DNA of 62,868 bases, filler included, from Chrysochromulina tobinii (lineage: Eukaryota): the NCBI GenBank assembly GCA_001275005.1. It is 9 parts of 9 records of this genome, joined end to end, with 100 filler letters (N's around TTAATTAATTAA, not from the genome) between each part and the next. Parts side by side here need not be neighbours in the genome. Positions count along the whole stretch, not along the records: positions 16,489 to 31,006 come from JWZX01000464.1; 8 more parts are not named here. The stretch is one strand, 5' to 3'. The translations under genes were made by a program, and so were the position numbers. The notes under the pieces are model-generated. The model ran no database searches, was not told the origin of the DNA, and worked only from the letters and a program-made list of their open reading frames with translations. Below are positions 16,723 through 28,957 of the stretch, one piece after another. How positions within the stretch are numbered: the stretch's first letter is position 1; every line of letters begins with the position of its first letter.

Positions 16723-17778
16723 ATGGCCACCTCCAGGTGGGACCCCTCAGCGCCGGATGGGCTGCGGGACAAGTTCTATTCATACGACGGCACGTGGCGC
16801 ACGGCCGAACCGTCGTGGCGCTACATACTCGACAGGAAGCAGAACGTGCGTGGCTCCACAAACTGGAAGTTTCCTCTGCATGACCCGGCAGCAGACTTCA
16901 ACGCCATCGGGGTGCCGCTCGGCGTGCGGCACCCGCGTGGGCCGGAGCCGGCGGAGCCCCCGACGACCGCACTCGCCTACTCCACGCCGGCCATTCCGAA
17001 ATACGGCGCGCTGAACGAGGCCGCAGAACTGGCAGCCTCCGCAATGTTCACTGTGAGCCGCAAGGATCAGAAGATGAGCGGTTGGGCTACGCAGACGCTC
17101 ACGCACACCGACTATATCGATCCGGACACGGCACGCTGGGGCAAATTAGGCATCATGACGCGCGAGCGCATGCAGGTCGCCGACAAGTTTGGCGACATCG
17201 CGGTGCCGCATCCGAGCAGAGTCACCACGGCGCCGATGCGCCCGGCGCCGCCCGAGAAGACCGGGTTCACGCGCGGCGCGGCGACGCACGGCGCGCACAT
17301 GCTCACGGGCGGGTTCGTGTATGTCGAGCCCGAGGTCGCGGTCTCGCCCGCGCCCGACCCGTACAGCCTGCCCGAGCGTATCTCCGGCCGCAAGATGACA
17401 TCGGGCTTCGCGATCGGCAACAACGAGCTCGAACGGACTTCGCCACCCGTGGACGCTGAGTCGCACTACATGATCTCTTCGATCGGGTACCCGGGTGCCA
17501 ACTTCAAGGTGGACAAGTATGGCGACCTGGTGGCGCGCTCGCCCACGCTGATCGACCTGGCGGCCGCGCGCGGTGCCAAGCCGGTCGACGGGGCTCACAT
17601 CAAGGTGGAGACATCTGGCTTCACGCGCACCAAAACGAACCCGTCGGCAGGCGCCGTGCCCGACCTGATCCGTACCGCCGAGCGGGAGCTCCACCCGACG
17701 CAGGTGCTGCTGCGCAAAATGAACGACCCGATCGAGTGCACCGACCCGCACGCGCACAAGATGCGCACACGCCACTAA
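16723..17778 (+). CDS. hypothetical protein with repeated (T/S)GF(T/A) motifs; possible axonemal microtubule inner protein (PPP1R32/SAXO4-like)
   Basis: Motifs KMSGWA, KTGFTR, TGGFV, TSGFAIGN, TSGFTR recur along a disordered protein. The family assignment is a by-eye inference. Confidence 0.5.
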   Translation: MATSRWDPSAPDGLRDKFYSYDGTWRTAEPSWRYILDRKQNVRGSTNWKFPLHDPAADFNAIGVPLGVRHPRGPEPAEPPTTALAYSTPAIPKYGALNEAAELAASAMFTVSRKDQKMSGWATQTLTHTDYIDPDTARWGKLGIMTRERMQVADKFGDIAVPHPSRVTTAPMRPAPPEKTGFTRGAATHGAHMLTGGFVYVEPEVAVSPAPDPYSLPERISGRKMTSGFAIGNNELERTSPPVDAESHYMISSIGYPGANFKVDKYGDLVARSPTLIDLAAARGAKPVDGAHIKVETSGFTRTKTNPSAGAVPDLIRTAERELHPTQVLLRKMNDPIECTDPHAHKMRTRH

Positions 17779-18311
17779 TGTCGACACTAATGGGGACTTC
17801 GGGCCGGCCCGATGGATACGGATGGCGCATGCGGACTAACACAATGGGGGGGGGGGAGCGAAATCCGTTTGAGTTACTTTCCAAAACTGCCGAAAGATCT
17901 AAGATGGAGCCACGGATGGTGCCGCCATTCGCGATTCCGTCTTCGGCGAGACGAGCGCGACCGTCTTCGGCGCGACTTGCGCGAACCGCCGACTCGTTCC
18001 GCACGCTGTCCTTACGCACTCGCGTACGGCTTCTCACCGAGCTTCAACAATCTGGATCCGTACCCGCCATCACGATCGAGGAGGCGCGAGCCAAGAGCCC
18101 GGCCGAGGCGCTGAAGACCGCAAAGTGTCACACGCTGAGCGAGATTCGACTTGCGGCGCGCGCGTCGCACGAGCTGCTCGTGCCACTTGACGTGGCGTCG
18201 GGCTTGTACTTGTCATGGACGCGGGCTCGTACCAGGAGTGCCGCTGACTCCCGCTTGAAGAGAAGCTCGGATACACCAGTACTGAGCCCGCCGGCACTCG
18301 ACAATTGGAAT

Positions 18312-20096
18312 ATGGCGGAGGGGGGCGCGTCGTTATTCGACAACGACCTTCCAGTCGCCTCGACCAGCAGCGATGAGGTACCGAAGCTCCGGTGGGCTCA
18401 AACCGACTTGCCGCTTGACCCGGCCTCGTCCTCGAAGATGGCGCGCTTGAACCCGCCGCCGCGCCCGCTGCCGTGGCCGCACTGGCTTGTTGGCGTGCTG
18501 TGTGCACTCGCTGGATTGCTACTCCTTGGCGGCGTTGAGTTGTTTACAGGGTATGCGCTGAAGGTCACATTCGTCATCAACCCAGGCCCGCCCGAGCCAC
18601 CCTACGCGCCGCCCAGTCAGCCCCCGCCGCCAAGTCTGCCCGCGCCACCGCCGCGACCCCCCCCACCGCTGCCACCTCCCGATCACCCACCGCCCTCGCC
18701 AAAGAGTCCGCCGCCACCGCCTCCCTCGCCACCACCGCCCTTACCTCCGCCGCCACCGCCGCCCTCGTCACCACCGCCCTTTCCTCCGCCGCCACCGCCG
18801 CCCTCGCCACCACCGCCATTGCCTCCGCCGCCACCGCCGCCCTCGCCACCACCGCCCTCTCCTCCACCTTCATCGCCTCCCTTGCCGTCGCTGCCGCCGT
18901 TGCCTCCATGGTTGCCCTTGCCATTCCCGCCGCCGCCCTCGCCATCGCCGGCACCGGCGTCTCCACCATGGCTACCCTCACCGCCGCCGCCGAGCCCAAT
19001 GACGCCCCCTCCCTCGCCGACCGTGCCGCCGCCCCCCTCGCGTCCACCGCCCTCTCCAACTCTCCCGCCCAGCTCGCCGCAGCCGCCAACCTTGCCGCCG
19101 TCACCATCGATACCCTCGCCATCGCCATCGCCCGCACCGTCGCGCCCGCCCTCGCTACCGCCCGCGCCGCCCTTGCATCCGGGAGCGCTCAAGATGGTAG
19201 GCAGCGCGCTGTCGCACGAGCTACCGATCGTCGAGCACCTCGCGGCACATGAGCTCAATGTCGTGTGGCACGGCGCTGAGGGCTTGGCGTACGGGCTCGA
19301 GCACGGGCTGGTGAGCATGGAGCACGCAATGAGCGGCGGCGACTACGCATCGCTCGCGCGGCACGAATCGGAGTACGTGCGCGCTGCCGTGCGCGCCGAG
19401 GTGCTTGCCTGGTCGCCATGGGCCCGCTGGCTCACACTTGCGACGCTGCTCATGATGATTGGGTTCTGCTTCCTACGCTGCTGCTGCAGACGCTATGCCC
19501 AGCCAGCTGAGGCGGGGAGCAGCGGTGACTCCGACGCGGGCTCTGACGAGTCCGAGTCGCCGCTGCTCGTGTTTGGAGAGGGCACATCCAACTTGCTCGC
19601 CACGCCCAGCAAACTCGGGTCGCTGCCAGGGGATGAGCAACCGCTGCTGCCGGGTGGAGTCGTTCGCTCGGACAGGGCCACGCCCGTGCCCACCACCCCG
19701 GCGAGCATCAGCCCTCCAGGTAAACGTCGCCGTCAGGAGGGCGACGTCCTTGCGCTTGCCCGGGCCGTCGCAAGTCGACCTCCCGGCGCCGAGCCGCCCT
19801 CGCCGGCCGCCCTCGCGCCCTCGAGGCCTCTTGCAGACGGCACCCTGTGGCACCAACCCAACCTCATGTGGGTGGGCACGAGCGTGCGCTACGTGCCCGG
19901 CCGGGTGCACCCAAGCGAGGTCGGTGGCTCGCCGGACGCGCCAGCCGCGCGCCTACCCTCGATGTATGAAGTCCCCGGGAGCATCATGGCAGCCAGAACG
20001 CGCGCCGGCTCCACCATCCTGCAATCGCCTCCCTACACAGTGATGACGCCACCCGACAGCCCGATCAAAGATTTGGATTTCAGGCAGTTCCTCTGA
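18312..20096 (+). CDS. extensin/pherophorin-like (SPPPP) proline-rich membrane protein with two TM helices
   Basis: TM helix (WLVGVLCALAGLLLLGGV), ~200-aa P/S tract, second TM followed by CCC (WLTLATLLMMIGFCFLRCCC). Confidence 0.7.
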   Translation: MAEGGASLFDNDLPVASTSSDEVPKLRWAQTDLPLDPASSSKMARLNPPPRPLPWPHWLVGVLCALAGLLLLGGVELFTGYALKVTFVINPGPPEPPYAPPSQPPPPSLPAPPPRPPPPLPPPDHPPPSPKSPPPPPPSPPPPLPPPPPPPSSPPPFPPPPPPPSPPPPLPPPPPPPSPPPPSPPPSSPPLPSLPPLPPWLPLPFPPPPSPSPAPASPPWLPSPPPPSPMTPPPSPTVPPPPSRPPPSPTLPPSSPQPPTLPPSPSIPSPSPSPAPSRPPSLPPAPPLHPGALKMVGSALSHELPIVEHLAAHELNVVWHGAEGLAYGLEHGLVSMEHAMSGGDYASLARHESEYVRAAVRAEVLAWSPWARWLTLATLLMMIGFCFLRCCCRRYAQPAEAGSSGDSDAGSDESESPLLVFGEGTSNLLATPSKLGSLPGDEQPLLPGGVVRSDRATPVPTTPASISPPGKRRRQEGDVLALARAVASRPPGAEPPSPAALAPSRPLADGTLWHQPNLMWVGTSVRYVPGRVHPSEVGGSPDAPAARLPSMYEVPGSIMAARTRAGSTILQSPPYTVMTPPDSPIKDLDFRQFL

Positions 20097-20856
20097 GCGG
20101 CACAGACGACAGCGGTTCCATCGCGCGAGTCGCGACGAGAGGCTAGGGTCTTGAGATCCGCTCATCGTCGCGCAACTCGGTCGGTGAGCGTCTCCGGTCG
20201 TTTGCGTCCATACATCAGTGACAGTGTGCGACGAGGAGCGCCCCGCCGCCGGGCGCCCCGGTTTCTATTCACAATTCAGCCCGGTCCGCCCCGCGGCCCG
20301 GGGCAAGGGCGCCTTAGGGGCGCCGCCTCGCCTCGGACGCTGCGGCCTGGGCGGCCCCGGGCCCCGCCATTTTTATTCCAATCGTACACACGATATTCAA
20401 ATACTCTTCAAATACACCTGTACCGCGGTATTAAAACGTGCTGCTCGCACGTGCCGTCGTGCGACCGGCCGGGCGGGGCGGAAGGGCGAACCGGCAACCC
20501 GCCGCTCTAAACCGAACGGTGAATCATCTCGAGACTCGACTCGCATAGCGCTCCAATTCCCACCGGCAGACCACGACGCGGCTGCGCCAAGCCTCCAAGG
20601 TCCGGCGCGCACGCTCAGGCTCTCCACCGTGAGAGGATACACGCCATCCCTGCACATTGGCAGCATGCCAGCATCCGCCATCACGGTGCTCTGGCGGCTC
20701 CATCGACACGTCGCACCGCCTGCCCGCGCTCCTCGCGGGCACAAGGGCGCCATCGTTGTCTCTTGTCTCTCCTCTTCCAACCCAAGGTACCACCTCGTGG
20801 CCGCTACCCTTGAGTCGCTCACGTCTTCCCCGATGGCCACCCGATGGCCACAACGA

Positions 20857-23800
20857 CTAGATGCGGAAGAAGCGCTTATCGGCCTCCTCCTCGAGGACGG
20901 CGGGCTGGGGCAGCGGCGGCAGGTCCAGGGGCAGCAAGGCGTACCGTGTGTACGGGTCGATGGCGTACGCAAACTGCTTCTTGTCCGCGGCGTCTGTGGG
21001 CGCCTTGAGCTCGGTCAGCCGGTTGACGCCGCTCAAGCGCTTCGTGTACGCGAACAGCGCCTCGCGCCGGTCGAGGAGCTTTTGGTACTCGGCGTCGGAG
21101 ATACGCGCGCCGTACCGGCGGAGCACCGAGTAGCCCTGCACCATGTCAGCACAGTCGAGTACGTGGAAGAAGCCGCGGTTGATGCCGAGGCCTTCGGGCC
21201 TGGAGCGACTCGACAGAGCCGAGCAGTGATCATCAGAAGTGATCAGTGGCAATCAGTGGTCATCAAGGGTCATCAGTGGTCATCAAGGGTCATCAGTGGT
21301 CATCAGTCACCAGAAGGGCTCCTGCAGCGCGTCGCCCACACGCGTCACGAGTACGCGAGAAGCGGGCGAGCCGCCAAGCGTGGCGCCGGGCACAAGGATC
21401 GCCGCGCGGTTGGACGATTTGCGTTCCGAGAAGTCGAAGATCTGGAGCTGATCGGGGACGAGTGGCTGCTGCGCGAGCGCAGGCACGAAAGCGCTGATGG
21501 CCTGGCGCGCATACGCCTCGAGCTTAGAGCGGTCGACGTTCTCGCGCGACGTCGGCTCGGGCACGCTGAGCGAACGCACTGCACCCGCGACCATGAGCGC
21601 CTCCAGATCCGAGGTCATCACGAAATAGTGTGTGGCGCAGTCGGCAAAGTTGCCGCTGCTGCGGTAGTACACGATGTTCTGAAGCACGCAGCCGTTCCGG
21701 GCGAGCTGTGCGAAGGTCTGTTGGTGGTACTGCTGCGACCAGGTCGATTCCGGGAGACGCATCTCCTCGACCGTCTTGTGGTTCTGCAGGTGCACCACGA
21801 TGCACGTCGCGCGCGCGAAGCGGGTCGAGAGCTGCGTGAGGCCGAGCTTCTCGAAGAGCTCGCAACGCGCACCCGTCGCGTCCACGAGCACGTCCGGAGG
21901 CTCACCCGGAGCACCGCCCTTGGGCGCCATCGCTCGTGCGCGACGCTCGTCCACACCGCCGCCAGAGCGCTTCTTCGAGGTGGCGCCGCTGGTAACCGAG
22001 CGCGCGCCAGTGCGCGAATTGCTCGCATCGCTGTGGAGCATGCCGAGCGGCGAACGCGGCGCTGGCGCGCTGCTCGAGTCGCTTTTTGTGTGCAACGCCA
22101 TCGCAACCGGCTTGCGCGGCGACGGTGGGCGCGGCGTGAAGAAGGAGGCAGAGAGGTAGCTCTGTAGCGAGCGCGGGTCTGCGACCTTGCAGTTGAAACG
22201 CACAGTCACCCCAAGGAGCACCGCGACCTTGAGCAGGGAGTGCTGCAGCTGCGAGGTCTGCACATGTCGAAAGTCGGCGCCGCTAAAGATAGACGGATCG
22301 ATGAACTTGATGCCCAGATCAATGAGATCCAGCTCGACCCATTCCCACAGATGGAGTACCTGCAGCCGGCCGAAGCGCTCGCGGCTCTCGAGCACCTCCA
22401 CGCGCAGACCGAGGAAAGCGAGCTCGATGGCGCAGCGCAGGCCGATCGGGCCGCCGCCGATGATGACCGCGCGTCGCCGCGCCGCCTCTCTCGGCAGCCG
22501 TTGACCTCGCGCGTCCATGTCGGCTGCCGAGTATTGCGCCCGCGCCGCGCGGCTGCTCAGCTGTGCGAGGAGCTGGCGTGAACGATGCGGGAGAAGCGGC
22601 ATCAGTGCCTCAGTTAGCAGCGGCAGCAGCGACGGCGTGTCGGCGGTGAGCACGCTGCTACCGCGCCGTCCTAGCACGTCGATGTGGAGCGCCGTCAGCA
22701 GCGCCGCGTGCGCATGAAGCACGTCGGCTGCCTCCTTAGCCGCTAGCAGCTCGCCGAAGGCCGCGGCGGCCGCTCGCTGCTCCTCCGTCATCTCGGCGGC
22801 CGTAAGGCGGGCGGGGTCAAAGCCCAAGCGCTGCGCGCCCGGCACACCCAGCCGTTGCGCACCCACCGGCAACGCTACCGCCGTGCCACGGGGCGTCCAA
22901 GCACGCGGCGACGACGCACGCGGGCTCGTCGAGGCTGGGGCCGCCGCCGCTGCCGCCGCCAGCGCGAGAGGCGCACGCGGCACCACCACTGGTGGCGTCG
23001 CGGGCTTGGCGGGCTTGGCGGGCGGCGGCGAACGGAGGAACAGCTTGAAGGGGGAGATGAGGAGCGAGGCAGCCGTCGGGCGTGTCATGTTAGGTGTACT
23101 GGCGTCGAGCTTTGGATCACTGCCGCCCAACTTTCTAGGCGAGGAGCTCCGAGGGTTCAGGGTCGGCCGAGCGCTGCCGGAACGTCCTTTTGTATTGCAT
23201 GCCTTGGTTGACGTTGTCGCTGTCGCTGCTGCAGTCGTCTCTGCCTCTGCCTCTGCCTCTGCCCCTGCCCCTGCCTCTGCCCCTGCCCCTGCCTCTGCCC
23301 CTTCCTCTGCCCCTGCCTCTTCCTCTGCCTCTTCTGCCGTCTTCGCAAGAGAGCCACACGTGTGGGCGGTCGGTGGCGGCGAGAGGCGTGCGCCCGTGAC
23401 ACTCCCCGTCGTCGACGAGGCGGCCATGAAGTCGGCGGACCGGAAGGAACAGCTCGAGGAGCAGCTGGATGAGGAGCAGCTGGATGAGGCGGTCGATGGC
23501 GCCGCCGGCGTTTGTGCCGGTGTCCAGAAGCTCCCTCCGCTGGTGTTGACGCTCCGGCTGTTGCCGAGGACGAGGGGGAAACCGACGGGGCTGCAGACAG
23601 GGCTCACCGGCGCTCGCTTCGCGTGCTTGCGCCCACAGCCGAAGAACAAGCAGAGCCCAAAGCAGCCAGCAGCAGCAGCCGGCGTGTCGCTCGCCTCGCC
23701 ACTGGTTGTCGGTGGCATCGGCGTGGGCGCTACCTGGATCCGGAAGGTTTGCTGCTGAGGCGAAAGCTCAGGTGACAGCATGCACGAGGTTGTGGGCGAC

Positions 23801-24714
23801 GGGCGATGCGACGATTTTGAGGCTGCTGAGGGCGGCGGCGGTGGCCAGAGCTGCACGGGTGGAGCAGATGCCCGGATCATTTCGTCGGGCATCGGCGCCG
23901 CGGCACTGCGCTGCGAGGAGGTGCGCGCGGAGAAGGCACGCGGCGAGGCGCGGGCCCGCTCGATAGCGGAAGTCTTGGCAGCACGAGCGCTAGCAGATGC
24001 GCAGTTGGTGGCGGACGCAGAAGAAAGGGCGAGTGGCGGCTGAGCAGCACTGGCGACGGCTACCCCGCCGGCAATACTGCTGGCAATTGGACCGGCGGCG
24101 GGCACGATGCCAAGGTTCTGTTGTTTCGAGGACGCCGCGCGCAGCTGACGCTGCCGGTCCGTGTTACGGAAGAGGGCAGCGTTCGCCATGCGGCGCGCTG
24201 CGTCGTTACGCAGCGGCATGCCAAGTCTGATGAGTGCCCTCGCTCCACCTTTGTCGAGCATCTCGGCGAGCGCCATTTCGACCGCAGTCGAGACGGCCGT
24301 GCGCTGGTCGGTGAGCCGCAGCTCACGCAGCGTCGTGTTCGACTGCAACGCGCCAACGATGTTGAGTAGCCCAGGCTCTCGCAGGTCGTTTCTCTCCAGA
24401 TTCAAAACCTCGACGCGCCCGCCTGCATCGGCGTGGAGCGCAGCTGCCAGTGCCGAGGCGCCCGCATCGGGGAGCGTGAGGCCCGAAAGGTTGATCACCG
24501 TGACGTACGGGTTGCCGATGAGCAGCGCCAGGGCAGCCACCTGACGTGGTTCCGGCCAGCGGATGAACTCCTGCTGCAGCGCGGCTGTGAAATCGAGGGA
24601 CGTCATGGACGTGTCATGCGTAGCGATGCGCATGAAAAGGGCGCGCAAAGGCGACGCCGCGTTTAGTGAGGCCGACACAGCCTCGAACTTTGCAAGGTGA
24701 ACGGGGTGTGCCAT
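20857..24714 (-). CDS. tropomodulin-like LRR + MICAL-type FAD monooxygenase fusion; exons 24714-21311, 21199-20857
   Basis: N-terminal LNLERNDL...ALQSNTTLRELRLTDQ...VEMALAEML...RRMANAALFRNTDRQRQLR. C-terminal VIIGGGPIGLRCAIELAFLG, VLHLW, QLQHSLLKVAVLLGV, LQNIVYYR...THYFVMT, and VGDALQEPFW|PEGLGINRGF reconstituted across the intron. Confidence 0.85.
21200..21310 (-). other. 111-nt phase-2 intron with GACCACTGAT/GCCACTGAT satellite
   Basis: TTCTG|GTGACT...CTCCAG|GCCC splits the Trp codon of EPFWP. Confidence 0.88.
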
Positions 24715-24952
24715 CGAAAACCGCCCGTGGGACCCGCGGCTCACGGCGAGGAGGCACAGGAAGTGACAGGAACGAGTTCAAAAGCGTTGGAAGCGCCTAG
24801 GAATGTCCCCATGTGGAAAACATCAGTTCAGTCTACCCAAAAGTGCTGGGAGCACTGTAAAACTGACTCCACATCTACAAGTAAGACCATAAGCGGTGTG
24901 ACTGATTTCTGATTAAGGAGCCTATTCGCCGGTTCCGTCAACTGTTCCGTCC

Positions 24953-26164
24953 ATGGTGCTCGTCCTCTCGGACGAGCTTCCAGTGGACGCGTTGCTGCGC
25001 GCGCAACGCGCGGATCACACCAACTTGGTCACTCCCAATTCAGCCAAGCGACAGCTGGTCACGCATTGGGCGTTGCCAGCTGTCGATGCCGTGGCGGCGG
25101 AGGCACGCGCAGCCGCGGTACAGGCTGCGGCCGACGAGTTGAGCTACCTCGTTTCGACGCTCCCTTCGGAAATTGGTGGCTCAGACTACGTGGACATTGA
25201 TAAAGAGCCCGTGCAGCCAGGGCCGCCGTCTCCAGCCATTCTCGAGCAGCGCGCGCGCATGGTGAACGTGACCAACATGCTAGACGGCCACGATCACAGT
25301 TCTTATGAAGGGAAGCTGCTGCTCGAGTCGGTCGACGACGCAACTGTGCGCCTGCTCGATGAGACGCTCGACGCGCTAGAGCGCGCGAGCGAGGACACCT
25401 CTCGGGCTTCCGAGATCAGCTCCAAGGCCATGCTGATGGCTCTCGATAAGATGGACGACTTGGTCATGAGGGCGGGCCCTCGGCGCTCCTCGACGAAGCG
25501 GCTGGTGTTTGACGCCACGCCCGAAACCGCGCCAGGAGCCACCGCGGCGTCCGACGCGGCCCACGCCCCTCCGGGTGACGCGGCCCAAGCCCCTCCGGGT
25601 TCGCCGTTGATAGACACGTTGTCGGCGAGTCAGCCGGCGCTGCCAGGAGGTGTGGGCAGCGAGGACGAGCTGCAGAGAGCCCTCGGCGAGGCTGTGGCGA
25701 ATCAGGGTCGTCTCGAGCACGAGCTGGGCCTCTCGAAGACGCTGCTGGCCAAGGCGCACGGGCAGCTGCTCGATGCTAAGAAGCGCACACACGAGGCTCG
25801 CATGCGGCAGCCGGGCGGCCGATGCGCTGAGGGCGCGACGCAGACGGAGCCAGAGCACCATCGGTCCGTGTTTGAGAGCCTGCACGACGGCCTGTACGAG
25901 CGCGATCGCGTCATCGACATGCTCCACGTCGAGCTCAAGCATGCTTACGAGATCGCTGGCATCACGCGCACGCGCAGGTTTCCTGTGCCGCTGCCCGTGC
26001 CTCCCTCCGTCTGGTCCGAGGAGATCGAAGTCGACAGCAGCACCACCACGTCGGTGACAGCGAAGACGCCCGAGCGCAGGCGGTTATCAACGGCCAAAAA
26101 GTTCCTGGACCGCGGCGCGATCGAGCCGAAGACTAAGGACGCCTCCACCATGACACGAGACGCA

Positions 26165-26214
<50 letters not shown>

Positions 26215-28957
26215 TGCGAAGCCGCCGAGCGAGGACGCCGCCTTGGTGCGAAAGCTCAAAGAGAAGCACGCGAGTGAGAAACGACAGCTCGAGCAGAGGG
26301 CTACCGAGCTCGAGGTGAAGCTGCAGGCGGCGACAACCGCAGCGCAGGAGGCGGCAAGTAGGCCTGCACTCGAGCCGGCGGTGAAGGAGCTCCTCGACGA
26401 GGAGGGCGGCGTGAACGCCGTCTTGGCACTCGTGGGCAGAGCTCACGCAAGTGAGGTGCTCCTCGCACGCAAGGATCGCGAGCTTGTGGCCAAGGATCGC
26501 GAGCTTGTGGCCACGTGGCTCGACGGCGTGCTCGCGCGCACGGCCGACGTGGTTGTCGCCGAGGCGAAGATGGAGGCGAAGATGGAGGCGGAGGTGCGGC
26601 GGCGCGTCGATCGGGCAGTTGAGGCGAGGAATGAGCAAGAACGAGAGATAGGGCTAAGGCTAGCCGAGGCGAAGGGGGCGGCGGCGAGGGCTGAGGCGGC
26701 TTTGCAGCGGCAGGCCTTTGATGGCAATGTGCTTTCTCTGAGCCTGGCGGCGGCGGACGAAGAGCTTGAGGCGAGTGGAGAGCAGCTCGAGGAGACGTAC
26801 GAGCGGCTCGATACGGCGCTCGGGCGCAGCCGTGCACTCGAGGAGGCCGAGGCGAGTGGTCGGCAGATGCACGCCCGGGTGGCGGCCCACAGCCGCGAGG
26901 CCACTGCCCAAGCACTTGCTTTGAGCGCCGTGCTGCTCATTGAGCTCGATCGATGCGATGAGAGCCTCGGTGCCGCGCACGCACGCGCCAGTGCGCGCGC
27001 TGAGGAGCAAGCCGCGCTGGCAGCCTCCGCGGAGGAGGCGCGTGCGGGCCGCGCGGCCGTCGACGCCGAGCGTCGCCAGATGCTCGAACGCGTGGGCGCG
27101 GCGGAGGCGAAGGCCGAGGCAATGGCGGCGCGTGTAAAGCAGCTCGAGGCGGCGGCGCAGGCGGCGCAGGCGGCGGCGCAGTCGACGGCGGCGGCGCAGG
27201 CGGCGGCGCAGGCGCAGTCGGCGGCTGCGGCTCAGGCGGCGGCTCAGGCGGTGGCGGCCGCGGGCCAGTCACAGCAGCACGAGCTCGTGCTGGCGCGCAC
27301 GCTCACCGCGGCGCTTGACGAGCTCGAGGCCGAGTGCGAGTCGTACCAGCAGGCGGCCGATGAAGCCCTCGCCCTCTGCGCCACGCACGACAAGGCAGCC
27401 GCCGCGGCTCTCGTGGCGTCGCAGGTGGCTTCAAAGGAGGCACATGCCAAGGCAGCTGCTGCACGCCTCGTGAGCACGGCCCATCGGAGCATGGCGCAGA
27501 GCCTGCGGGGTGCCGCAGGCACCCAAGCAGGCGCCAACGCAGATGCTGCCGCGGCCATCGTCGCAGCCGCCGTCGCGGCCGAAGGGCACACAATCGCATT
27601 AGCCGCGCTCGGCGCCGAGGTGCGCGAGCTCGAGGCGGCGCTGAGCGACACGCATGCCAAGCTCTGGGCACTCAAGGTGCATGCGAACATCGGCTCCGTG
27701 ATCATCAAGCGGCAGCGCGAGGAGGCGTGCGGTGCTGGTGGCGGAGGCGGCGGCGAGCAGCTTTGGATCCAAGACGCGAAGGGCGAGTTGCTCTCGCGCG
27801 GCGTGCTCCCGGAGGCATCCTCCGCGGCGGACGAAGACGATGACGAGAGCGCCCCCCTCGCGTCTCCTGGACATCCCGGCTCTTCTTCGGTGGCCTCGCG
27901 GCCGCCCGTGCCCAGTACCTGGGCACAGGCAAGTGGTCGACGCCCCCCTCAGCAGGTGTCGCCGCTCTCCGCTGGGGCTGAGGAGGTCTTTGGACAGCCC
28001 ACGTGGCTGCGCAAACCGACAAGCGCGGGCATGGGCAGCAGCCGGGCGGCAGGTGGGCGGAAAGAGGGCACGCGGCCCTACCTGTCCCCGAAGACCGTCC
28101 CGTGGGAACCGCCGCAGGCTATGACCGACGCCGAGCGCGACGCCGAGCGCGACGCCCCGCCGAGCGCGCGGCGCCCGATGAGCGCCGCGACGGCCCTCGC
28201 GCAGGCTCGCGGCTCGGGCAGATCATCGAGCCTTCACAGCAGCACCTCAGCGCCAGCGCTACCAAGCGGCGGCGGCGGCAGTTCGCGCGACGCCAGCCCG
28301 CTGCGCGACCACGAGCCGGACGGGAACCGACGAGTGAGCTCGCCACAGGTAGGCGAGAGGCCGCAGGGCCCGTTACAGCGCCCGAGGACGGCAGCACCCG
28401 ACGGCAGCACTCTGAGCGTGCGTACCACCATACTGGAGGCAGCTATGGAGCGAAAGCTCGAGAGCGAGTGGGGTCGCAAGCACTCCGAGCTCCTCTTCAA
28501 GATGTCGGCAGCACGCCAAGCGAGCAAGGCGTACGAGGAGTCGGCCGCCGCTAGGAGCAGCCGACGCGCGGCCAGTGCTGGCCCGCACTCGGGCGGGAGC
28601 ACAGGCGTCGCCGCGGCCGCGGCCGTGGCCGCTGCAGCACACCGCGCGAGCATGCCGAAGCCCGAGAGGCGGCTGCGCCGACCGGCGACCGCCGCGCCTG
28701 AGGTCGCTCTCCCACAGCCGCACGCGGGAGTGCAGGCGCCGCCGCCGCCCCCCCCGCCCCCGCCTTCGAGGCCGGGTTCGGGTTCCTTAAACGGCCGCTC
28801 AGCATATGTCACGCCCATCCACACATCCAGCTCAGCGAGTGCGTTGCCTGCGGTTCGGACGCCCTCCTCCCTCGGCGACACGAGGCGAGCGATCCTGCGC
28901 TCCGGATCGGGCGTGGTAGTACCGATTGAGCTGCGCCTCGAGTCTAGTCAGGCGTGA
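24953..28957 (+). CDS. large Ala-rich coiled-coil protein with disordered S/P-rich C-terminus
   Basis: 1334-aa ORF with heptad-rich central region and a (PA)n linker. Divergent from the MICAL-like gene. Confidence 0.75.

What the first reader, a model, noticed from the sequence alone, without database searches (positions are those of the whole stretch)
20857..24714. Tropomodulin-like LRR fused to a MICAL monooxygenase: candidate targeted actin-disassembly enzyme in an alga
Seen: the N-terminal LRR (~24560-24140) closely parallels the tropomodulin/leiomodin actin-binding LRR and its C-terminal helix (ALQSNTTLRELRLTDQ...VEMALAEML...ANAALFRNTDRQRQLR). The C-terminal domain has the ordered MICAL motifs (GxGPxGLRxAIELA, VLHLW, LQNIVYY, THYFVMT, VGDxLxEPFWPxGxGxxRGF). 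Established: MICALs oxidise actin Met44/47 to depolymerise F-actin and in animals have MO-CH-LIM architecture; tropomodulins cap pointed ends; both are characterised mainly in animals. Inference: the LRR replaces CH/LIM as the actin-targeting module, an architecture I do not recognise from described proteins.
Basis: partly seen in the sequence, partly recalled or inferred. Interest (0 to 1): 0.85.

Follow-up and report, generated by a model that had tools for sequence, protein, structure and literature searches.

The report
Tropomodulin-like domain fused to MICAL oxidase
A gene of what is likely a haptophyte alga joins, in one reading frame, a domain resembling the actin-binding part of animal tropomodulin and leiomodin to an enzyme domain resembling animal MICAL, so it likely makes an actin-tethered enzyme that would oxidise and dismantle actin filaments.

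Summary
The fusion is real. One minus-strand gene (exons 24714-21311 and 21199-20857, 1248 aa) carries both domains within exon 1. RNA contigs skip the 111-nt intron in 4 of 8 runs laid. The LRR matches tropomodulin/leiomodin ABS2 over its whole length (Z 20.6-21.9, next 16.5). The oxidase, folded through a 64%-identical relative, matches MICALs (Z 32-37, next 21.3). Seven distinct sequences have both domains, one labelled Prymnesium polylepis. The publicly held 593-aa protein lacks the LRR. The arginines that contact actin in Tmod1 and Lmod2 are kept. Tropomodulin's capping elements and D-loop contacts are not, so filament side-binding is likelier than capping. A cysteine/basic linker motif may anchor it to membranes. 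'LRR replaces CH/LIM' is too simple: animal MICAL oxidase binds F-actin unaided, and related oxidases carry PH, WW, EF-hand, cofilin or LIM partners. Ten literature searches found no description. New variant of a known kind.

The parts
21311..24714 (-). Exon 1 coding region: LRR, linker and most of the monooxygenase in one open frame (aa 1-1135)
   Evidence: RNA contigs begin at 24740-24765 in 5 of 8 runs, consistent with the ATG at 24714
21200..21310 (-). 111-nt GT..AG intron made of short repeats, with an in-frame stop right after the donor
   Evidence: joint in 4 of 8 runs laid
20857..21199 (-). Exon 2: end of the monooxygenase (aa 1135-1248) and stop
24121..24657 (-). Tropomodulin/leiomodin ABS2-like LRR with C-terminal helix (aa 20-198); preceded by a family-specific helix at aa 4-13
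22795..24120 (-). Low-complexity linker (aa 199-640; 63% P/S/A/G/T), probably disordered (inferred)
   Evidence: no Pfam family at E<=1
23614..23673 (-). Cys/hydrophobic/basic motif in the linker (aa 348-367), candidate S-acylated membrane anchor (inferred)
   Evidence: present in 6 of 8 related linkers at <=6 of 1000 shuffles; score defined after seeing the motif
21311..22794 (-). MICAL-type flavin monooxygenase, exon 1 part (aa 641-1135): N-terminal helical bundle, GxGxxG at aa 753-758, Thr947 at the DG-motif Asp position, GD motif, EPFW
   Evidence: fold of relative P0107
21901..22167 (-). Low-complexity insertion inside the monooxygenase (about aa 850-938)
   Evidence: the matching stretch of P0107 has pLDDT <50
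20390..20856 (-). Likely 3' untranslated region
   Evidence: contigs end at 20364-20458 in 7 of 8 runs; contigs cannot show true RNA ends

Best explanation
The gene encodes one 1248-aa protein with a tropomodulin/leiomodin-type LRR at the front and a MICAL-type flavin monooxygenase at the back, which likely works as an actin-tethered filament-dismantling enzyme. Shown: the gene structure, the two homologies and their recurrence. Inferred: the LRR would bind in the groove between actin subunits along filaments, as isolated leiomodin ABS2 does, rather than cap pointed ends; the flexible 440-aa linker would let the oxidase reach neighbouring subunits; the oxidase would use FAD, NADPH and O2 to turn actin Met44/Met47 into sulfoxides, weakening the filament; the cysteine/basic linker motif would hold the enzyme at a membrane, so that it clears cortical or vesicle-associated actin locally. 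With no CH-LIM-coiled-coil tail there is no Rab-released autoinhibition of the animal kind, so placement would do the controlling.
For: LRR: profile against PDB gives Tmod E 7e-32 over about 165 positions versus RNase inhibitor 1.6e-17 over about 65; the top 12 Foldseek hits are all Tmod/Lmod; Z 20.6-21.9 for five Tmod/Lmod chains, next 16.5. Of the actin-contact residues listed in PMC10665800 Table S3, Tmod1 G316, R340, R343 (numbering converted by me from the table) map to G165, R189, R192 and are identical in 29, 35 and 35 of 38 related domains; Lmod2 R107 and R135 (table numbering) map to R133 and R163, basic in 35 and 36 of 38; Tmod1 G268 maps to G115, 38 of 38. Lmod ABS2 without the pointed-end segment localises along filaments (PMC4571291). 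Oxidase: MICALs fill the top 10 Foldseek ranks (E 2e-31 to 6e-29, next 4e-11); Z 32.3-37.0 versus 21.3, including the MICAL N-terminal helical bundle. Seven distinct LRR+oxidase sequences. Other MICAL-type oxidases carry cofilin (P0227) or LIM (P0193) domains. All 60 D-loop segments read from 99 metagenomic actin loci keep both methionines except 3 with Ile at the second.
Against: No binding or activity data. The five Tmod1 residues of Table S3 that contact the actin D-loop region (E176, N179, N203, N204, N289) are not kept, nor Lmod2 N25, N110, T150, T154; loop-1 columns are poorly aligned. The 38 domains were chosen to reach the C-terminal helix, which inflates its conservation. Identity to Tmod/Lmod is only 20-30% and to MICAL 30-33%. 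The DG-motif Asp is Thr, MICAL's Asn123 is Gln and Cys97 is Ile (MICAL residue numbers recalled), so substrate coupling may differ. Only 2 of 21 rows in the nearest oxidase clade carry the LRR, though many rows are partial. The same LRR occurs without an oxidase. The organism's own actin was not identified.
Confidence: 0.5

Rival explanations
1. The LRR places the enzyme on actin or a membrane, but the oxidase mainly makes local H2O2 or oxidises another protein rather than actin methionines.
For: Thr replaces the DG-motif Asp; in MICAL-1 Ala at this site gives about 12-fold higher basal NADPH use and more H2O2 (PMC5772675 section 9). The clade is distinct from animal MICALs. Partners such as BART, CEP19-like, fn3 and WW in other relatives do not point to actin.
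Against: MICAL-1 with its Ala still oxidises and dismantles actin. The match to MICAL covers the whole domain. A Tmod-type LRR and a cofilin partner both point to actin.
Confidence: 0.2
2. The LRR has Tmod ancestry or shape but binds something other than actin, for example an axonemal or haptonemal microtubule structure, and recruits the oxidase there.
For: The next-best folds are axonemal LRR proteins, Z 16.1-16.5 over 164-174 residues. D-loop contacts are lost. The domain is promiscuous: tandem pairs, EF-hand fusions, a PP2C fusion.
Against: Sequence similarity through the C-terminal helix is found only with Tmod/Lmod; axonemal and RNI LRRs match only about 65-75 profile positions. The helix arginines that bind actin in Tmod are kept.
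Confidence: 0.15
3. The LRR nucleates or end-binds filaments like leiomodin, so one chain both seeds filaments and limits their life by oxidation.
For: Isolated Lmod ABS2 nucleates (PMC4571291). The C-terminal helix here reads more like Lmod than Tmod. Tandem two- and four-copy versions exist (P0137, P0144, P0146, P0154, P0190, P0219), a layout suited to nucleation.
Against: Nucleation depends on 11 loop residues that I could not map. No WH2 domain in Pfam at E<=1. No assay.
Confidence: 0.12
4. Two neighbouring genes, or an assembly chimera, read as one frame.
For: The publicly held protein is the oxidase part alone (P0011). No RNA contig spans both domains.
Against: A 440-codon linker without a stop; RNA contigs tile it except at repeats; independent assemblies give the same frame (P0001, P0002, P0012); six other lineages at 53-79% LRR identity have the same order of domains.
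Confidence: 0.03

Closest known systems
Animal MICAL1-3 / Drosophila Mical (F-actin monooxygenases; Pfam PF25413; PDB 2bry, 6ici, 9ewy)
   Same: Whole monooxygenase fold (Z 32-37, rmsd 2.4-2.9 A over about 430 residues for relative P0107); GxGxxG, GD, VLHLW, NIVYY, THYFVMT and EPFWP motifs.
   Different: Oxidase is C-terminal, not N-terminal; no CH, LIM or Rab-binding coiled coil; Thr in the DG motif; a 90-aa insertion; separate branch from the animal proteins; activity untested.
Tropomodulin and leiomodin ABS2 (LRR actin-binding site 2; PDB 1io0, 4pki, 4rwt, 4z79)
   Same: Same LRR plus C-terminal helix (Z 20.6-21.9, rmsd 1.7-2.0 A over 165-170 residues); G268, G316, R340 and R343 equivalents kept.
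   Different: No tropomyosin-binding sites, ABS1, capping loop or WH2; D-loop-contacting Asn/Glu lost; extra N-terminal helix; fused to an enzyme.
Non-animal MICAL-like oxidases in public databases (Pythium, Noctiluca, Prymnesium entries)
   Same: Same oxidase, often C-terminal behind a long N-terminal region.
   Different: They carry PH, WW, EF-hand, fn3, BART, CEP19-like, cofilin or LIM+PDZ domains, or none that Pfam names (45 scanned); none of the 195 oxidase-only proteins had the LRR. No functional study found.

Membership tests
MICAL family | MICAL-type monooxygenase domain | tested here: met
   window; fold of relative P0107, 64% identical
MICAL family | GxGxxG and GD FAD-binding motifs | tested here: met
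   aa 753-758 and the GD before EPFW; motifs as defined in PMC5772675
MICAL family | Asp of the DG motif | tested here: not met
   Thr947; MICAL-1 also lacks it and is still a MICAL
MICAL family | CH, LIM and C-terminal coiled-coil/Rab-binding domains after the oxidase | tested here: not met
   protein ends with the oxidase; no CH or LIM in Pfam at E<=1 for either exon
MICAL family | F-actin-activated NADPH oxidation and Met44/Met47 oxidation | not testable with these tools
   needs biochemistry
Tropomodulin/leiomodin family | ABS2 LRR fold with C-terminal helix | tested here: met
Tropomodulin/leiomodin family | Actin-contact residues of ABS2 | tested here: inconclusive
   3 of 8 Tmod1 and 3 of 7 Lmod2 residues of Table S3 identical in the window protein: all the Arg and the Gly, none of the D-loop contacts; the table lists only part of the interface
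Tropomodulin/leiomodin family | N-terminal TMBS1/ABS1/TMBS2 region (about 160 aa) before ABS2 | tested here: not met
   only 19 residues precede the domain; RNA contigs begin 25-50 nt before the ATG
Tropomodulin/leiomodin family | Leiomodin C-terminal WH2 extension | tested here: not met
   no WH2 in Pfam at E<=1; a divergent short motif could be missed
Tropomodulin/leiomodin family | Actin binding, capping or nucleation | not testable with these tools
Generic RNI/NLRC3-like LRR | Best match to long RNI-type repeat arrays, without the Tmod C-terminal helix | tested here: not met
   RNI/NLR chains match 22-46% of the profile or score Z <=16.5

The most novel reading that the evidence does not exclude
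Haptophytes run an actin-oxidation system of their own, in which a MICAL oxidase is aimed by interchangeable modules, one of them a tropomodulin-type ABS2 domain that has shed its D-loop contacts and leaves Met44/Met47 free for the enzyme on the same chain. Both the MICAL oxidase and the ABS2 domain would then be far older than animals, and reversible actin oxidation would be a general eukaryotic mechanism rather than an animal one.
Probability: 0.4. Interest if true: 0.82.

Novelty: new variant of a known kind. Interest (0 to 1): 0.66.

Why it matters
MICALs are described as conserved from invertebrates to humans (PMC5772675, passages), and tropomodulins are studied in animals (own knowledge; no non-animal study surfaced). 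A protein that joins the two in a distant alga would show that both tools predate or spread beyond animals and can be wired together differently. It offers a single-chain system to ask how an ABS2 domain binds filament sides and how MICAL reaches the D-loop, which a 2024 structure paper still calls open (PMC11315924, passages). It also gives a molecular handle on haptophyte actin, which is needed for scale and coccolith secretion but could not be visualised (PMC5684398, passages). The publicly held protein omits the LRR, so domain surveys would miss the fusion.

Tried and rejected
No whole genome is held, so paralogues, actin and MsrB of this organism were not surveyed. A scan for actin genes gave 99 loci; composition and a tree and cluster names did not tell which is haptophyte. 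Strain differences in RNA contigs (28 coding sites; LRR 4 synonymous/5 non-synonymous, oxidase 6/2) are uninformative: all 5 LRR changes come from one short contig of one run. An upstream start (P0012) is not favoured, as RNA contigs begin at 24740-24765 in 5 of 8 runs. The LRR tree does not make the 7 fused domains one clade (4 changes, 2 forced by strong branches), but several unfused neighbours are short fragments, so single origin is neither shown nor excluded. The oxidase tree (118 rows, FastTree, no outgroup; 43 near-duplicates and all partial domains left out; three of nine animal labels were assigned by me) says nothing on root or gene transfer. The short helix motif in sister paralogues found no Pfam family and no PDB hit better than E 0.48. 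The atlas search for the LRR did not complete; for P0005 it gave only oomycete and diatom MICAL-like clusters at 0.80, a lead at best. Two look-ups in earlier findings returned nothing. The 'longer' homologue search covered only 663-2000 aa, so it missed animal Tmods.
Full report
Gene structure. The ATG at 24714 on the minus strand opens a frame without a stop to 21311. A GT..AG intron of 111 nt (21310-21200) restores the MICAL motif across the splice, and exon 2 runs to the stop at 20857, giving 1248 aa. Eighteen public runs hold half or more of the region's sampled words, 14 on record as RNA. Of 8 runs laid, 4 show the predicted joint, one with 255 letters on its shorter side. Contigs begin at 24740-24765 in 5 of 8 runs and end at 20364-20458 in 7 of 8. 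No contig spans both domains; they break at two linker repeats. Three runs also hold contigs that read into the intron, which may be unspliced RNA or DNA. Both domains lie in exon 1, so the fusion does not depend on the splice call.

Organism. No genome is held. The oxidase falls in a 20-row clade (support 98) with a Prymnesium sp. protein, a relative with both domains is labelled Prymnesium polylepis, and the RNA holders on record are freshwater, mixed-culture or unspecified metagenomes. A freshwater haptophyte is inferred.

The LRR. Single-sequence search puts nine Tmod/Lmod chains first (E 5.6e-13 to 1.1e-9), with ribonuclease inhibitor close behind (2.4e-9) but only over aa 65-138. A profile of 18 relatives widens the gap: Tmod 7e-32 over about 165 positions, RNase inhibitor 1.6e-17 over about 65. 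A second profile of 11 gave whole-protein scores for RNase inhibitors near those of Tmod (3e-26 versus 7.8e-31), again from short repeated stretches. The model (mean pLDDT 94.2) returns Tmod/Lmod at Foldseek ranks 1-12 and at Z 20.6-21.9 among 48,161 chains; the next are axonemal LRR proteins at 16.5 and 16.1. So this is an ABS2-type domain, not a generic RNI repeat.

Actin contacts. I mapped the residues in Table S3 of PMC10665800 (supplement part 2 of 3; main-text passages) through the alignments. Of 8 Tmod1 residues the window protein keeps 3 (G316, R340, R343), and of 7 Lmod2 residues 3 (the three Arg). These contact the body of actin. The residues that contact the D-loop region are not kept. 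Across 38 domains (61 found, reduced at 90% identity, chosen to reach the C-terminal helix) R189 and R192 are Arg in 35 each, R133 is basic in 35, R163 in 36, and G115, the equivalent of the myopathy glycine G268, is Gly in all 38. The selection inflates the helix figures, and the table is only part of the interface. Only 19 residues precede the domain, so TMBS1, ABS1, TMBS2 and the capping loop are missing. In PMC4571291 (parts 1-3 of 7 read) those elements are what makes Tmod a cap, and Lmod ABS2 without them lies along filaments and nucleates.

The oxidase. MICAL1 and MICAL3 are the only strong PDB hits (E 4.7e-31 to 1.6e-27; next 1.1e-3) and PF25413 passes its cut-off. I folded P0107, a one-piece relative at 64% identity: MICALs take Foldseek ranks 1-10 and Z 32.3-37.0 against 21.3 for the best other monooxygenase. 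GxGxxG, GD, the Trp of EPFWP, and the His of VLHLW and THYF are kept; the DG Asp is Thr. In MICAL-1 an Ala there raises basal NADPH use about 12-fold without abolishing actin oxidation (PMC5772675, section 9). There is no CH, LIM or coiled-coil tail, so the autoinhibition described in PMC11557892 (passages and section 9) and PMC11315924 (passages) cannot apply as such.

Recurrence. Among 240 proteins scanned (239 fetched plus the window's), 17 had both domains, 28 the LRR only and 195 the oxidase only. The 17 reduce to 7 distinct sequences with LRR identities of 49-79%. Only the window protein and P0005 reach the end of the oxidase; the other five stop inside it, probably at introns or contig ends (inferred). 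The linker differs in length (147-444 aa) and sequence but has a cysteine/hydrophobic/basic patch that passes a shuffle test in 6 of 8 linkers and fails in P0151 and P0131; the score was designed after seeing the motif. A lipid anchor is inferred from general knowledge of S-acylation sites. The protein held by NCBI, UniRef and EukProt for this cluster (P0011) equals aa 543-1135 exactly, so it lacks the LRR and exon 2.

Wider context. MICAL-type oxidases occur in Pythium, Noctiluca, Prymnesium and many unnamed eukaryote records. Of 45 that I chose for long flanks, 4 carry PH, 3 EF-hand, 3 CEP19-like (1 above cut-off), 2 BART, and one each WW, fn3, LIM+PDZ, cofilin and CH. The LRR also appears without the oxidase, in tandem pairs, four copies, and with EF-hand or PP2C domains. 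In the nearest oxidase clade only 2 of 21 rows have the LRR. A review states that the MICAL redox domain alone binds F-actin and that the CH does not appear to (PMC9982024, passages). The LRR is therefore better read as an added locator than as a replacement for CH/LIM.

Mechanism. Most likely (0.5) the LRR holds the protein on filament sides, the linker patch holds it near a membrane, and the oxidase converts actin Met44/Met47 to sulfoxides to dismantle filaments locally. Loss of the D-loop contacts would leave those methionines reachable; that is speculation. Rivals are a located H2O2 source or other substrate (0.2), a non-actin partner for the LRR (0.15), a nucleator-plus-dismantler (0.12) and an artefact (0.03).

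Literature. Ten searches of the held library (listings seen) showed no paper on this architecture, on algal tropomodulin or on protist MICAL. PMC3305314 (passages) found no MICAL-class protein in the few non-animal genomes it examined. The library lacks most subscription papers, and I read no supplement except part of one, so a mention in a genome paper's tables cannot be excluded. Database names such as the UniRef label on the Noctiluca protein show that non-animal MICAL-like domains are already flagged automatically.

Verdict. Observation confirmed; interpretation partly supported. It has a MICAL-type oxidase and a Tmod/Lmod-type ABS2 but fails architecture tests for both families, so it is filed as a new variant, not as a member of either. 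Interest 0.66.

Noticed in passing
P0035, P0037, P0038, P0040, P0108, P0109, P0111, P0122, P0124, P0224 (N-terminal regions): Sister oxidases without the LRR share a short helix-like motif before the oxidase; 11 of about 300 proteins match the pattern, 10 of them these close relatives. It recalls the Ena/VASP F-actin-binding helix (from memory); Pfam and PDB searches gave no support.
   Followed up: partly
P0137, P0144, P0146, P0154, P0190, P0269 (two copies); P0219 (four copies): Proteins made of tandem ABS2-like domains with no enzyme; candidates for actin nucleators or bundlers outside animals.
   Followed up: partly
P0227, P0193, P0171, P0174, P0057, P0184, P0194: MICAL-type oxidases fused to cofilin/ADF, to LIM+PDZ, to BART or to CEP19-like domains. 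The cofilin fusion mirrors the known MICAL-cofilin synergy; BART and CEP19 hint at the ciliary base.
   Followed up: no
P0098, P0103, P0210, P0206, P0223, P0058, P0060, P0164: Several oxidases begin with Met-Gly followed closely by Cys, a pattern typical of N-terminal lipid anchors (15 of 118 begin with Met-Gly).
   Followed up: no
window 20860-20868 (-), P0005, P0107: The last three residues are the same in the window protein, P0005 and P0107 although the preceding tail differs; possibly a C-terminal binding motif.
   Followed up: no
window 21200-21310 (-): The intron is built of short repeats and has a stop right after the donor; contigs reading into it occur in 3 of 8 runs. Retention would cut off the last 113 residues of the oxidase.
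   Followed up: partly
window 24917-28957 (+) and 17460-20096 (+): Flanking frames of 1346 aa (Ala/Glu-rich, divergently oriented about 200 nt upstream) and 878 aa (proline-rich with hydrophobic stretches) have no Pfam family at E<=1.
   Followed up: no
window 670-43846: Other frames are ordinary eukaryotic genes: aspartyl protease, MCM6, tubulin-tyrosine ligase family, ankyrin, RCC1, RPAP3-like, kinase, ion channel, ABC1 kinase, SAC3/GANP (13 lines of 22 scanned had hits in 11). No actin-related cluster.
   Followed up: partly
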